64,000 nt of DNA from the NCBI GenBank assembly GCA_963804955.1, contig CAWDSQ010000030.1:64001-128000 (forward strand). Direction: 5' to 3'. The position numbers are program-made. The stretch comes from an uncultured delta proteobacterium (lineage in GTDB: Bacteria; Desulfobacterota; WTBG01; CAIYCZ01; CAIRTM01). Of the stretch, positions 27,001 to 33,000 are shown one piece after another (within the stretch, counting starts at the first letter, position 1; each line of letters starts with the position of its first letter).

Positions 27001-30000
27001 TGAATTTCAACCTCGAAGAACTGCCGCCCGGCATTATCGACCATCGCGAGTGGAGCGACGATAACGGCCGCAATAATCTTTTGCGGGTGAACGGCATCGG
27101 CGCGCCCCGCGCCTTTGCCGCAAGCCTTCTGCGCCGGTTCCCGTTCCCGAACGTAAGCTATGGCGAGGACTATGCCGTGTCGCTGCGGATATCACGGGAC
27201 TATACGGTCGGCAGGATCTATGAGCCCGTTTATCTCTGCCGGCGGTGGGAGGACAATACGGACGCGCAGCTCTCAAACGAGCAGGAAGTGCGCTATGCGG
27301 AGTATAAGGACAGCCTGCGCACCCGGGAAATGAACGAGCGGCAGTTGCAGAATCGTTGAACGGTAATCCCTATTCAACGTTCTTGTCGTAGTATCCTTCA
27401 TCATAGAGCTTTTCATCGTCCCGCACCTGATAGCGGATCAGGACGATGGCCAGGCCTATGAGCAGCCACAAGCCCGCAAGGCCGTAGAGCCTGTCGCCGG
27501 TTACAGCGCGTGATTTCTCCACCTGGTCAAGCGACACTTTCCGGAGCTGTGCCTCGGTGGCGGCATCCTGGACCTCTTCGGTCGCAATGGTCCTGCTGGC
27601 AGCAGGAGTCTGCAGGCTCTGCCGCACAGGCATTGCGCGCAGGCAGGCCGCTCCACAGCAGCATGCCGATGAAAACCAGTAAGCAGATCTTCTTCATACC
27701 CCTGCCACCTCTCAGGAAAAATAACCGATAAGAGTACAGATCACGAACACCAGCAGGCTCATGACGCCGATTATAGTAAATACAGGGCTCAGCTCTCCGC
27801 GCTGCGACCTGCGGTCGATAAACGGTGCACACGTTATGCAGAGGGCCGCAGCGGCAAGGCCCACAATGCCCACGACTTCTCCCTCGATGCCCGCAATGAA
27901 TGTGGGCAGCCATTTCAGTATCTGATAGACCCAGAGGAAGAACCAGTCTGGCTTGACCCCTTCAGGTGCGGGCTTCAAATAATCTATTTCCTGCCCGAGC
28001 TCAGAGGGCATGATGACGGCAAGGGTCGCTACAAGGCCCAGCAGCAGCAGGCAATTGACAATATCGTGCCAGAGCAGGTGCGGAAACATGGGCTTGGCCG
28101 GCAGCGTCTTTTTTTCCGCCGCAGCTTTTTTCAGAATGGAGACGGGTACGCTCATGCCCAGCAACTGCACGAGCAGCAGATGCACGCCCACTATGAGCAG
28201 GAGCGCCGCCGGCAGCACGCCTACATGCAGGGCAAAGAACCGGTTCAGGGTCTGGGGCCCGACATTTTCGCCGCCCCTCAGGAATTCAAGAATGTATGTG
28301 CCCACCACCGGTATGGCGCCGGGCATGTCGGTTCCCACGTTCAGGGCAAAGAATGCGCGCTCGTCAAAGGGCAGGGTGTAGCCGCTGTAGCCAAGGAACA
28401 TGACCACCACCAGCAGCGCCATGCCCGTAAGCCAGGTGATCTCCCGGGGCCTGCGGTACGCCTTCACAAAGAACGTGGAGAAGAAGTGCACGAAGGCCAC
28501 CACGATCATCAGGTTGCTGGCCCAGTGGTGTACAGAGCGGATGAGCCAGCCGTAGGGAACATTCACCATGATCTCGGCTATGCTCTGGTAGGCGGTTTCC
28601 GCCGAGGGCTTATAGTAAAAAAGGAGCATGATGCCGGTGAGCCCCTGGATCATGAAGAGGAAGAGCAGCAGGCCGCCCATGTAGTACCAGACCGAGTGCC
28701 GGTGCATGGGCACCATTTTTTTGCGGGCAAGGCTGATGATGGCATCAAGCCCGATGCGCTCATTGATTTCTTTTTTAACGTCGAACATCCTTCAGCCTTT
28801 TTATACTATGCCTTTTCATCATTGTGCTCCCGGAGCGACAGCACCAGCCTGCCCCCTTCTTGTGTCAGCTCAAATACGTCAAGGGGCCGCGGCGGAGGGC
28901 CTGCCACATTGATGCCCGCGTCGTCGAAATAGCCCTCATGGCAGGCGCAGAAAAACTGCTTCGTGTCAGGCCTGTACTGCACAGTGCAGTCCAGGTGCGT
29001 GCACTTGGCCGAAAAGGCCCGCAGCTCGCCTGATGCGGTCTTAAGGAGCACGCCGGGCAGGCGGCCGTATTTGAAATACACAGCCGAGTTCGGCGCAAGC
29101 TTCTCAACGTCGGCCAGCGGCACGGTCACAGCCTTGGGCAGGGGTATTTTCTTTTTGAAAAACAGGAACCCTGCAACCGGATAAAGGGCGTATGCCGCAA
29201 GCGAAGCAAGGCTGCCGGTGATGAACCCCGTTATGAGCTGACGTCGCGAAAGGATTGATTCTCTAAGTTTCATGCCAAGCCTTTTTTAGCAGGCTGTTGA
29301 AAAACGCCCATTTGCTGCGTTGCGTTCATCATGCTTCACTGCGGCGTACGAACAAGTACGCCTCATTCGCATGATTTCACACGCCTTGCATCTGAACATT
29401 TTTGAACAGCCTGTATTCATAGACTTTTTAAACAACCTATTAAAGTAACCGAAATAGTTTTTTAAATTTGTACGCCACCAGCTTGCGCCGCAGGGCCTCG
29501 ATAGTGTCCGTGGGCCTGATATCTTTCGGGCAGGCGTCGACGCAGCGGAATATGGTGTGGCATGCCCACAGGCCCTGGGCGTTATTGACCCGTTCAAGAA
29601 ACTGCGGGCCACGCTGGTCGCGCGAGTCCTGCATAAAGCGGAAAAGCTTGGCGATGGCCGCCGGGCCGAGATACTTTTCGTCGAACCGCACCACCGGGCA
29701 GGAGCCGTAGCAGCAGGCGCACAGTATGCAGTTGACATAGGGGTCAAGGCTGACTACCGCATCATGGGACTGGAGCCGCTCTTTTTCCGGCCTGTCGCCG
29801 TTGACATGAAGCCAGGGCTCCACGCGGCGGTAGGCTTCCCAGAATGGCTTCATGTCAACGACCATGTCGCGGATTATCTCCATGTTCGGGAGGGGCTCAA
29901 TGAGAACCTGGCTGCCTATGAGGCTCGTGAGCTGGGTTCGGCAGGCGAGCACGGGAGCGCCGTTTACCAGCATACCGCAGGAGCCGCACACGGCGCTGCG

Positions 30001-33000
30001 GCAGGAGTAGCGGACTGCTATGCTGTCGTCCTCGGTCTCGTGGATATTTAAAAGCGCCTCCAGAACCGTGCGGCCCCGGGGGTAGGTTTTGACAAAGGTA
30101 TCATAGCGCGGCGCTGAGTCCACGTCGGGATCGAAGCGAAATATCTTGAACGTATACTGAATATCAGTATTTGCGTTCTGTGGGCTCATAATCGGTTATC
30201 TCCACGTCAGTATAGCTCAAGTCCGGCCCCTCGGGGCGGTAAGCGGCCATGGTGTGTTTCAGCCACTGCTTGTCGTCACGTCCGGGAAAGTCGGTGCGCC
30301 AGTGCGAGCCGCGGCACTCCTCGCGGGGGATGGCGCCAGCGACAGTAACCTCGGCAAGGTCGAGCATGCCCTGCAGCTCAAGGGCGTTCATGAGGCCCGG
30401 GTTGTACCGCCGGGTGCCGGGGCTGCGAAGGCTCATGCGCTTGTAGCGCTCCTGCAGCTCTTTAACTTTGGCCAAACACTCGACAAGCGCCGGGCGCTGC
30501 CTGAAGACGCCGCATTTATTGAAGAGGGTTTCGCGCATCTCGCTGACGATGGTGCCCACAGTGTCGGCGCCGCGCTGCCGCGACAGGATCGTCTGAATGC
30601 GCGCCTCCTGTTTATTCAGCTCATCCTGCAGCACCGCGGCTTCGGGCTGCGGCGGCGCCGAAGAAAGATACCGGCAGATTGCCTCGCCGGAGAGCTTGCC
30701 GAAGACCGTCGTGTCCAGCAGCGAGTTTCCTCCCAGACGGTTTGCGCCGTGCACGGACACGCACGCGCACTCGCCCGCGGCATAGAGGCCCGTGAGGTTT
30801 GTGGCGCCATGCGCATCGGTGGCAATGCCGCCCATGGAGTAGTGCTGGCCGGGCTGCACCGGAATGGGCTCGTCGATGGGGTCGATACCGCCGAAGTCCA
30901 TGGCGATCTCCCGTATGCCCGGCAGGCGTTCGAGGATTTTTTCACGCCCCAGGTGCCGCAGGTCAAGGTGCACGTACTCGTCGTTGAAGCCCCGCCCTTC
31001 GTTTATCTCGGTCTGTATGCTGCGGGCGACGATGTCGCGGGGCGCAAGCTCCCAGACAGTCGGGGCGTACTTTTCCATGAACCTCTCGCCCTTGCTGTTT
31101 ACCAGGTAGCCGCCCTCGCCGCGGGCGCCCTCGCTTATGAGGATGTTGGTGCCGCAGATGGTGGTGGGGTGGAACTGAACGAACTCCATGTCCTCGATGG
31201 GCACGCCGGCATAGTAGGCAAGGGCAACGCCGGAGCCGGTGTTGATAAGGGCATTGCTGCTGCGGGCAAATATCCGGCCGTACCCGCCGGTGGCAAGCAC
31301 CACGGCCCTGGCGGCAAACATTTCCAGGCGGCCTGTGGCCATCTCCATGGCGATGACGCCATGGACCCTGCCGCCCTGCACGGCAAGGGAAAGGGCAAGC
31401 CACTCCTCGTAGCACTTAACGCCCAGCTGCACGGAGCGCTCGTACATGGTGTGCAGGGTCATATGACCCGTGCGGTCCGAGGCGTAACAGCAGCGCGGAT
31501 AGCCTGCGCCGCCGAAGGGCCGCTGGGCGATGCGGCCGTTCTCGATTCTGCTCCAGGGGCAGCCCCAGTGCTCGAGCTCATAGACCAGCAGGGGCGCCTG
31601 CTCGCACATAATGCGAACGGCCTGCTGGTCGGCAAGGTAATCGCTGCCCTTGATGGTGTCGAAGGCGTGCTTCTCCGTGGTGTCGTCTTTTGAGCCGTCC
31701 ACGTTTGCAAGGGCAGCGTTCATGCCGCCTTGTGCCGCCACGGAGTGGGAGCGCACGGGATGCACCTTGGATAGCACTGCGGTATCATATGCGCCGCAGG
31801 CGCCGATTGCCGCCCGCAGGCCTGCAAGCCCGGCGCCTATGACCAGTACATCGTGTTTAACCATGCAGACCGATGCCTTTTTTGTGACCGTTCAAGATTA
31901 TTTAAGTACCCAGTTGAAGCAGACAAAAACGTACAGCACAAGCCCGAACGCCGATAGCCCCCAGAAAAGCTCCTTCTCCTTCTTTACGCCCCAGTCGACA
32001 AGGCAGGTCCGAAGGCCATAGAGGCTGTGGTAGATAAAGAACAGAATGACCACAAGGTCAACTGCCACAAGGCCATGCAGCTTTGTCCAGTACGGGACCA
32101 CATCCTGGCCGAATCTGCCCACCACGCCGAAGCCAGAATAAATTTTAAACCCGATGAGCAGAATGAGCAACAAACCGCTGACCCGGTGAAACACCCAGAC
32201 AAACATATAACACCCTCCACAAAGAGATTCGAAAGCGGAAGATTGCAGGCTGCTCCGCACACTTCAATTCTGAATCCTGCCTATGCCGGCAGCTGCAGTG
32301 CTGCTGTGACCGGACAGGTAACGTGTGATCACGTTTCAATCGCCGGGAACCAGTCATGGGCGCTGTGTGTGTCGAGAAAACGCCCGCCGACAATATCAGC
32401 AAAGTTTTTTATAAAAGTCAAACCGTTCAGGCAATCCTTTTTGAGAAGGGCATCCAGCTTCTTTTTTTCGATCCTGACAACCCTGCTCGGAAGCACGCAC
32501 TCTGCCGAGGCGGAATAGGCCGGCCGGTCAAGCAGGCATGACCAGCCGAAAAAGTCTCCGGGGGTATGCAGAAAGGAGACGCTGTTTTTGTTCCGCTCAG
32601 CGCGAATGCAGATTCTTCCTTCTTCCAAAAGGTAGAAGTTTTTGGCCGGGTCGCCATTCTTGATGAGAATAGCACCTTTCTCTTTCGACTCCAGAACCGC
32701 AATCGCCTCCAGCTGGGCTAAAAAATCCTTGCTCAACCCTTTGAACAGCCTTTGTCCTTTGAAAGATTTGATACTCATCGCATGACCTCCTCTAAGGGTT
32801 TATTGTGGTAAATACCTGTCAACAGCCGGCATCCCCCGCATAGCGTGTGGATTGATTCCGTCCTGGAAAGGCGTAATCAAAAAAACACTAAGTGCTGGAG
32901 CTGCCTTCTTCACGAAAATATCGCCTGTTGCGATGGCTCCCTGAAGACAGTAAAAACATGTACTGGTCTCCGCAGCATGCTTGTGAGCAGTTGACAGTAT

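What a model noticed while it worked through the whole genome (the two positions that open the first line are those of the whole stretch)
27370..32206. Fixed operon joining succinate dehydrogenase/fumarate reductase to a Rieske/cytochrome b pair without cytochrome c1
One operon encodes a single short (102 aa) SdhC-like anchor, SdhA, SdhB, a Rieske protein, a full-length cytochrome b with Qo motif PDWF, and a small heme-free protein with signal peptide and C-terminal membrane helix. There is no SdhD and no cytochrome c1. The order is fixed across two orders of the class, which points to a linked complex II / Rieske-cytochrome b unit.
Evidence so far: Gene order in calls 13 and 123. Cytochrome b orthologues at 68-93% identity in 15 of 41 class relatives. 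In 11 relatives fetched, 8 show the whole order sdhC-A-B-Rieske-cytb-ORF and the other 3 show it up to a contig or window end; none breaks it. SdhC keeps three invariant His in 9 of 9 copies; the last ORF has no CxxCH in 7 of 7 relatives. SdhA passes TIGR01812, SdhB TIGR00384. Cytochrome b near SdhB-type domain in only 335 of 81,951 genomes bearing both. Paper searches 121, 130, 131 found no such operon.
(Added by a program. Inside this text positions count along the whole contig: contig position 64,001 is position 1 of the stretch shown here. "Call 12" and the like, gene names such as g00115 and contig names such as C1 are that model's own, and its searches are not shown. The text may have been shortened before it was handed on; [...] marks where a part breaks off. 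The agent that wrote the report below was given it as the finding of a first reader that could run no searches.)

Follow-up and report, generated by a model that had tools for sequence, protein, structure and literature searches.

The report
Succinate dehydrogenase joined to Rieske/cytochrome b
Several groups of oxygen-free, partner-dependent bacteria encode respiratory complex II and the core of complex III as one inherited unit that has lost its usual cytochrome c, probably a single membrane machine for the energetically uphill oxidation of succinate.

Summary
Confirmed: sdhC-sdhA-sdhB-Rieske-cytochrome b-small ORF, the genome's only SDH and only Rieske/cytb. One correction: the small ORF carries an extra base here (27609), probably an assembly error. 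The unit is far wider than the class: 67 distinct loci (Syntrophorhabdus, Syntrophus, Smithella, Aminicenantes, a clostridium); in one syntroph family 52 of 61 genomes have both halves, 9 neither. A second lineage fuses SdhB to the Rieske protein (34 clusters), which argues for physical coupling. Linked loci never have two anchors; unlinked ones usually do, so a homodimeric anchor is likely. The window-type anchor keeps the proximal heme His but has Lys at the distal-heme position. The small ORF sits where sister cytochromes b have a 9-11-heme cytochrome and resembles its membrane tail. Holders mostly lack oxidases, DsrA and NrfA, and three sit in methylmalonyl-CoA clusters. Best reading (0.45): one complex oxidising succinate with the Rieske/cytb half run backwards by proton-motive force; rival (0.3): forward flow to separately encoded c cytochromes. 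Binding and direction are untested. The scan noted this operon before on other DNA; eight paper searches found no description.

The parts
31898..32206 (-). Single 3-helix SdhC-like membrane anchor (102 aa); H60 = proximal heme ligand position, K21 at the distal ligand position, invariant H7, P38, W40, L43, H44, D50
   Evidence: PF01127; best sequence and fold match 6LUM chain C; helices 2-25, 40-44, 47-71, 77-101; invariants in 34 of 34
30164..31864 (-). SdhA flavoprotein (566 aa), covalent-FAD His and dicarboxylate-site motifs intact; Ser at the Thr position
   Evidence: TIGR01812 777 bits over 567; motifs, with Thr or Ser among orthologues
29440..30189 (-). SdhB iron-sulfur subunit (249 aa), [2Fe-2S], [4Fe-4S], [3Fe-4S] motifs
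   Evidence: TIGR00384; Cys motifs
29284..29420 (.). Dispersed palindromic repeat inserted between sdhB and the Rieske gene; not part of the conserved unit
   Evidence: 23 hits in G000; empty site in run X3; 16-90 nt gaps in relatives
28806..29273 (-). Rieske protein (155 aa): RR motif, membrane helix, CTHLDC and CACH boxes, G-F signature (predicted about +150 mV)
   Evidence: signature rule from PMC4122944; TatC present
27712..28788 (-). Unsplit cytochrome b (358 aa), four heme His (87, 101, 188, 203), b6-type spacing, PDWF, no heme ci Cys
27370..27697 (-). Small heme-free membrane subunit (signal peptide, short periplasmic part, one helix, conserved tail); frameshifted here by one extra base at 27609; probable remnant of the c-cytochrome subunit
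   Evidence: intact in relatives; fused to cytb in L133, L084, P0304; hhalign 83% to the C-terminal helix of the multiheme subunit

Best explanation
The six genes make one membrane complex: SdhAB on a homodimer of the small anchor (heme bP between H60 and H60'), docked on a Rieske/cytochrome b core whose c-cytochrome subunit has shrunk to its membrane helix. Its job is to oxidise succinate in the methylmalonyl-CoA/TCA route of anaerobes without a high-potential acceptor. The Rieske/cytb half runs backwards: membrane potential carries succinate electrons outward and quinone is reduced at the periplasmic Qo site with proton uptake. Shown: gene content, motifs, co-inheritance, fusions in a second lineage, pathway context. 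Inferred: homodimer, contact between the halves, direction. Two wirings fit: (i) SdhB/bP to bH to bL to Qo, cytochrome b replacing the lost distal heme and the Rieske cluster buffering one electron (2 charges per succinate); (ii) anchor to Rieske plus a reversed Q-cycle (4 charges).
For: Only SDH and only Rieske/cytb in G000. Own order: 12 of 21 genomes have the cytb; 8 of the 9 without it also lack SdhB. Family of G043: 52 of 61 both, 9 neither, none with one only. SdhB::Rieske fusion in 34 clusters, next to canonical SdhA in L052 and L056-L061. Zero of 76 distinct linked loci have two anchors (65 one, 11 cut by contig ends) against 27 of 41 unlinked loci. Type I SdhB is one clade across four phyla with the same subgroups as cytb. 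The 39 nearest unlinked cytb lie among multiheme cytochrome genes, 38 with one directly behind, where the small ORF stands here. Acceptors scarce: DsrA 0 of 16 class holders, COX1 only broken matches in 2 of 16, bd oxidase 1 of 12, NrfA 0 of 21; COX1 1 of 5 and 0 of 5 in other holders. Epimerase-like, mutase, MeaB, malate dehydrogenase and fumarase genes beside the operon in 3 of 3 relatives examined. Lys replaces the distal His in 55 of 56 type I anchors read by script and in the last by alignment. Without charge movement succinate reduces under 4% of a menaquinone pool (potentials recalled).
Against: No binding or activity data. All 61 genomes of the G043 family can mature c cytochromes; G000 has 37 ORFs with three or more CxxCH, a peroxidase-like diheme protein and a small monoheme protein, so an outside acceptor is possible. 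G064 has the operon in two places. G027 and G046 carry an intact heme-copper oxidase family gene. The menaquinone methyltransferase-like family, which would raise the need for extra driving force, is in only 7 of 16 class holders and also in non-holders. A plain dihaem SDH already solves reverse flow to menaquinone, so the gain from wiring (i) is unclear. Two of nine fusion loci have a flavoprotein that is not SDH. Holders were collected by similarity searches capped at 80 loci, and kin are not independent.
Confidence: 0.45

Rival explanations
1. A forward complex II-III supercomplex: quinol is oxidised at Qo, the Rieske cluster passes electrons to c cytochromes encoded elsewhere and on to metals, peroxide or an oxidase; SDH feeds quinone, or the semiquinone at Qi as in Mitchell's first Q-cycle, by close contact.
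For: Qo motif, Rieske ligands and low-potential signature are ordinary for menaquinol oxidation. Sister complexes use multiheme cytochromes; the fusion lineage keeps a c domain on cytb. CcsA in 61 of 61; many c cytochromes in G000. Loss of the distal His fits a purely cytoplasmic-side hand-over. Mitchell's proposal is recounted in PMC5600118.
Against: The dedicated cytochrome was lost while its helix was kept; known high-potential terminal enzymes are mostly missing; the unit is kept in 52 of 61 genomes of a family whose cultured member is a methanogenic-partner syntroph (lifestyle recalled).
Confidence: 0.3
2. Two separate complexes, a homodimer-anchored SDH and a Rieske/cytb, share an operon for co-regulation and meet only through the quinone pool.
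For: No physical data for the unfused type; G064 splits the operon; operons of respiratory and TCA genes are common (own knowledge).
Against: SdhB::Rieske fusions; strict joint loss; single anchor only in linked loci; in G064 the Rieske gene stays with sdh while cytb keeps the small ORF.
Confidence: 0.15
3. A fumarate reductase: low-potential quinol from formate or hydrogen oxidation is passed through a Q-cycle and the Rieske cluster to fumarate.
For: SdhA/FrdA cannot be told apart by sequence; G000 has formate-dehydrogenase-like molybdoenzymes and two menaquinone methyltransferase-like genes.
Against: Rieske at about +150 mV to fumarate is uphill by 60 mV without and 160-210 mV with membrane potential, which would stall the Q-cycle; Gln-type FAD motif and covalent FAD lean weakly to oxidation.
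Confidence: 0.1

Closest known systems
Dihaem type A complex II, Mycobacterium smegmatis Sdh2 (PDB 6LUM; PMC7447783, passages read)
   Same: SdhA/B core; 3-helix anchor fold (Z 9.9, rmsd 3.2, 99 aligned); proximal His C87 = H60; oxidises succinate with menaquinone.
   Different: One anchor gene instead of SdhC plus SdhD; Lys at the distal ligand C47; no N-terminal arm; encoded with a Rieske/cytb.
Rieske/cytb complexes with multiheme c subunits (nearest unlinked relatives in Acidobacteriota, Ignavibacteriota, Bacteroidota; related to Geobacter ExtP-type clusters)
   Same: Cytochrome b about 43-50% identical, seven-helix unsplit form, no heme ci Cys, CACH-type Rieske.
   Different: 9-11-heme cytochrome replaced by a heme-free stub; SDH genes in front.
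Rieske/cytb complexes with a cytoplasmic oxidoreductase subunit (anammox; PMC5600118, passages read) and the PDWF-FeS clade (PMC4122944, passages read)
   Same: A cytoplasmic redox enzyme tied to cytochrome b.
   Different: Partner here is a complete complex II with its own anchor; the Rieske protein is kept; no NAD(P)-binding subunit, no heme ci.
Eukaryotic megacomplexes that contain complexes II and III (Tetrahymena, PMC10227065, search listing and start of abstract only)
   Same: Complexes II and III in one assembly.
   Different: Aerobic, ubiquinone, cytochrome c1 and oxidase present, not operon-encoded or fused.
Dihaem SDH and EMO reverse redox loops of syntrophs (EMO: bioRxiv 10.64898/2026.08.18.745454, passages read; SDH loop recalled)
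   Same: Proposed task: proton-motive-force-driven reduction of a low-potential quinone.
   Different: No Rieske protein or Qo-type site in those systems.

Membership tests
Succinate:quinone oxidoreductase (complex II) catalytic core | Flavoprotein with covalent-FAD His and His, Thr/Ser-Glu, Arg, His, Arg motifs | tested here: met
   Ser for Thr in the window, Thr in several orthologues
Succinate:quinone oxidoreductase (complex II) catalytic core | Iron-sulfur subunit with three cluster motifs | tested here: met
Succinate:quinone oxidoreductase (complex II) catalytic core | Succinate:quinone activity and its direction | not testable with these tools
   context only
Type A dihaem complex II | Two different 3-helix anchors (SdhC and SdhD) | tested here: not met
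   one anchor per genome in 11 of 11 order genomes over cut-off; none of 76 linked loci has two
Type A dihaem complex II | His at the distal heme position of helix I | tested here: not met
   K21 aligns without gaps to His C47 of 6LUM; His is kept in the fusion lineage, 8 of 8
Type A dihaem complex II | His at the proximal heme position of helix II | tested here: met
   H60 aligns to His C87, invariant in 34 of 34
Type B complex II | One 5-helix dihaem anchor of about 200 aa or more (definition recalled) | tested here: not met
   102 aa, three membrane helices
Type F SDH (mycobacterial Sdh1 with embedded Rieske-type cluster; recalled) | Cluster bound inside the anchor subunit, no separate PetC-type protein | tested here: not met
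   separate Tat-type Rieske protein; no invariant Cys in the anchor
Rieske/cytb complexes | Cytochrome b with four heme His and a Qo motif | tested here: met
   H87, H101, H188, H203 invariant in 39 of 39; P280, W282 invariant
Rieske/cytb complexes | Membrane-anchored Rieske protein with both cluster boxes, disulfide Cys and RR motif | tested here: met
   invariant in 43 of 43
Rieske/cytb complexes | Q-cycle turnover | not testable with these tools
   needs biochemistry
Cytochrome bc1 | Cytochrome c1 subunit | tested here: not met
   no CxxCH in any of the small ORFs aligned
Cytochrome b6f / b6c | Split b6 and subunit IV, heme ci CxGG motif | tested here: not met
   unsplit; YYMGG in place of YCLGG; only the 14-residue His spacing is b6-like

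The most novel reading that the evidence does not exclude
The homodimeric anchor has taken over the place of cytochrome c1: succinate electrons leave through a remodelled periplasmic site (invariant K21, P38, W40, H44, D50) straight onto the Rieske cluster, and a reversed Q-cycle reduces (methyl)menaquinone, spending four charges per succinate. This would be an undescribed reverse-electron-transport engine of syntrophs, possibly evolved twice (with the heme-free stub, and with SdhB::Rieske plus cytb::cytochrome c fusions).
Probability: 0.25. Interest if true: 0.92.

Novelty: new variant of a known kind. Interest (0 to 1): 0.76.

Why it matters
Succinate oxidation is a textbook energy bottleneck of syntrophic propionate and aromatic degradation, and Rieske/cytb complexes are not expected as core genes of organisms without oxidases. 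A complex II-III unit in most genomes of a major digester and sediment syntroph family gives a concrete, purifiable candidate for how that step is driven. It also offers a natural homodimeric complex II anchor, the symmetric form from which SdhC and SdhD are thought to derive (recalled), and a system in which direct SDH-to-cytochrome b electron transfer can be tested.

Tried and rejected
Complex prediction of anchor with cytb, Rieske and small subunit: not available, nothing was folded, so contact is open. Two independent origins: free trees separate fused and unfused lineages in cytb and SdhB, but the AU test does not reject one cytb clade (p 0.055); left undecided. Methylmenaquinone as the general reason: rejected as general. 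Absence of c-type partners: rejected. Cytb residues H88 and R144 as linkage marks: rejected, not shared by Aminicenantes, clostridial or planctomycete copies. Small ORF profile against multiheme tails by HMM: weak (best 8.6 bits against 6.4 in 800 shuffles); Pfam, Atlas and the longer-protein search gave no c-cytochrome hit, so the remnant reading rests on position, topology and an 83% profile match of a 35-column membrane segment. Fumarate-addition enzymes in G000: not found. Promoter and terminator scan at chance level. No RNA holder listed, so co-transcription is untested. Fold search: only the top rows are SDH anchors and Z is in the range common for helical bundles. Literature: searches found no description; the 2022 complex II survey (doi 10.1016/j.bbabio.2022.148916) is not held; ten Brink 2013 and Dibrova 2013 were not read; supplements of PMC4122944 and PMC5600118 were not read and may show such neighbourhoods.
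Full report
Observation. The six genes lie on the - strand at 32206-27370 with gaps of 33, -26, 166, 17 and 14 nt. Pfam and NCBIfam give an Sdh_cyt anchor of 102 aa, SdhA over the TIGR01812 cut-off, SdhB over TIGR00384, a Rieske protein and a 358-aa cytochrome b. They are the only SDH and the only Rieske/cytb of G000; a second flavoprotein hit is 31% identical. sucCD, fumarase and malic enzyme genes lie upstream. The last ORF is split in the window by one extra base at 27609. 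Contigs from two independent runs lack that base, and 3 of 20 genes tested in G000 are split across frames, so I take it as a probable assembly error. The 166-nt gap holds a dispersed repeat.

Spread. Cytochrome b orthologues at 68-93% occur in 15 of 41 class relatives; 9 show the whole order, 6 show it to a contig end. Two scans of the genome collection, each capped at 80 loci, brought the same order from records titled Syntrophorhabdus, Syntrophus, Smithella, Syntrophales, Aminicenantes, Clostridia and Planctomycetia. After removing duplicates there are 76 loci with SdhB and cytb: 67 of the window type (type I) and 9 with fusions (type II). The small ORF was found in 63 of the 67; three misses are contig ends and one is a fusion below threshold. 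In the own order 12 of 21 genomes have the cytb and 8 of the other 9 lack SdhB too. In 61 genomes sampled from the family of G043, 51 have the cytb at E below 1e-60 and 52 have SdhB; the odd genome has the operon with a partial cytb, so 52 have both and 9 neither. By the tables 49 of the 51 are adjacent; G052 is cut by a contig end and G064 is truly split between Rieske and cytb. Kin are not independent, so I give no test.

Fusions. A class relative (L052) has one ORF with SdhB, a linker, an RR motif, a membrane helix and a Rieske domain, then cytb fused to a cytochrome c, then one 97-aa anchor. The fusion forms 34 clusters at 90% and several at 50%. The small ORF is fused to the end of cytb in L133, L084 and P0304, which marks it as a subunit of the cytb half. 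Trees put type I cytb with unlinked multiheme-associated cytb (100/96) and type II apart (41 rows picked from 122); type I SdhB is one clade (99) apart from type II (50 rows). The AU test does not reject one cytb clade (p 0.055), so two origins are suggested, not shown.

Anchor. With one HMM built from ordinary anchors, 88 linked loci (duplicates included) give 76 with one hit, 12 with none and none with two; 41 unlinked SDH loci give 27 with two. Eleven order genomes have exactly one PF01127 hit over cut-off. The model has three helices and its best sequence and fold match is SdhC of 6LUM. The ligands there are His C87/D107 for bP and His C47/D65 for bD (PMC7447783, passages). H60 aligns with C87; K21 aligns with C47 without gaps. 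Lys stands there in all 56 type I anchors and His in 8 of 8 fusion-locus anchors. H7, K21, P38, W40, L43, H44, D50 and H60 are invariant in 34 of 34. Inference: a homodimer gives bis-His bP; the periplasmic side is a remodelled site of unknown use (heme, quinone or docking).

Rieske/cytb half. Four heme His, b6-type spacing, no heme ci Cys, PDWF in this class and PEWY in the other type I loci. The Rieske signature is G-F, read as about +150 mV by the rule in PMC4122944 (passages). The nearest unlinked cytb sequences have a multiheme cytochrome gene directly behind in 38 of 39 loci, ending in one membrane helix. The small ORF takes that place, has the same topology and matches that helix at 83% over 35 columns; the HMM test was weak. 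I read it as a heme-less remnant, with moderate confidence.

Physiology. Among 16 class holders none has DsrA over cut-off and two have only broken COX1 matches; bd oxidase is in 1 of 12 order holders, NrfA in 0 of 21; COX1 in 1 of 5 other type I and 0 of 5 type II genomes, while G027 has an intact one. These are incomplete genomes. Methylmalonyl-CoA mutase is in 21 of 21 order genomes and, with MeaB and malate dehydrogenase, lies beside the operon in the 3 relatives examined. Against a closed loop: CcsA in 61 of 61 and many c cytochromes in G000. G000 has two menaquinone methyltransferase-like genes, but the family is in only 7 of 16 class holders, in non-holders, and in 2 of 5 other holders.

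Mechanism. With succinate/fumarate at +30 mV and menaquinone at -74 mV (recalled) or methylmenaquinone at -156 mV (bioRxiv 10.64898/2026.08.18.745454, passages), a proximal-only SDH reduces under 4% of the pool, two charges suffice for menaquinone but are marginal for methylmenaquinone, and four suffice for both. An anchor without the distal His cannot make the classical two-charge loop by itself, and the partner it is inherited with has a transmembrane heme pair and a periplasmic quinone site. I therefore favour one complex that oxidises succinate with the cytb half run backwards (0.45). Forward flow to outside c cytochromes, including Mitchell's original SDH-to-centre-N idea (PMC5600118, passages), is the main rival (0.3). 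Mere co-regulation (0.15) and fumarate respiration through the Rieske cluster (0.1) fit worse. Contact between the halves could not be modelled and remains open.

Comparison and novelty. Every part belongs to a known family, but the SDH is neither type A, B nor F, and the cytb half is neither bc1 nor b6f. The nearest concept is Rieske/cytb with an attached cytoplasmic oxidoreductase. Searches found no description; key subscription surveys and supplements were not seen. The scan recorded the operon before on other DNA (later checks there say part fell, without saying which); those notes are not evidence. Verdict: real, widespread, new variant of a known kind, interest 0.76.

Noticed in passing
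window 39121-40579 (-): Malic enzyme gene is split over two frames; with split MqnA/D, formate-dehydrogenase-like and methyltransferase genes elsewhere this points to frequent indel errors in the assembly.
   Followed up: partly
window 29284-29420 and 22 other hits in G000: Palindromic dispersed repeat of about 135 nt with GGCTGTT...AACAGCC ends; very high depth in public runs and an empty site in one. Looks like a miniature mobile element.
   Followed up: partly
L052:7710-8936, L056-L061: SdhB::Rieske fusion with an internal RR motif, beside cytb::cytochrome c and one short anchor that keeps the distal His; neighbouring SdhA is canonical.
   Followed up: yes
L062:4849-6606, L066:4640-6529: Fusion loci whose flavoprotein lacks the covalent-FAD His and has LLEEG for LMTEG: same scaffold, other substrate. 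L066 lies next to a DsrA-like gene (seen by eye).
   Followed up: partly
G000:C23:19462-20865 and C5:270397-271732: Two PRK08629-family genes; an 86% relative is named menaquinone C8-methyltransferase by its source.
   Followed up: partly
L063, L076, L079, L082, L089, L107, L108, L110, L119, L125, L134, L214 behind the small ORF: A conserved gene of about 630 aa follows the operon in Syntrophorhabdus/Syntrophales loci and stays with cytb in the split G064 locus; family not determined.
   Followed up: no
G000:C30:267376-274300, C7:298500-306100, C24:38900-60000: Multiheme cytochrome clusters, two with NrfD-type membrane subunits and one beside a CCG-domain protein; candidate quinone-linked partners.
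   Followed up: partly
window 32329-32778 (-): Stand-alone cyclic-nucleotide-binding domain gene directly upstream of sdhC, not seen in the relatives' loci.
   Followed up: no
G013:C78 (L217:3662-6116): sdhA-sdhB of another subtype at a contig end, with no anchor gene found in that genome.
   Followed up: partly
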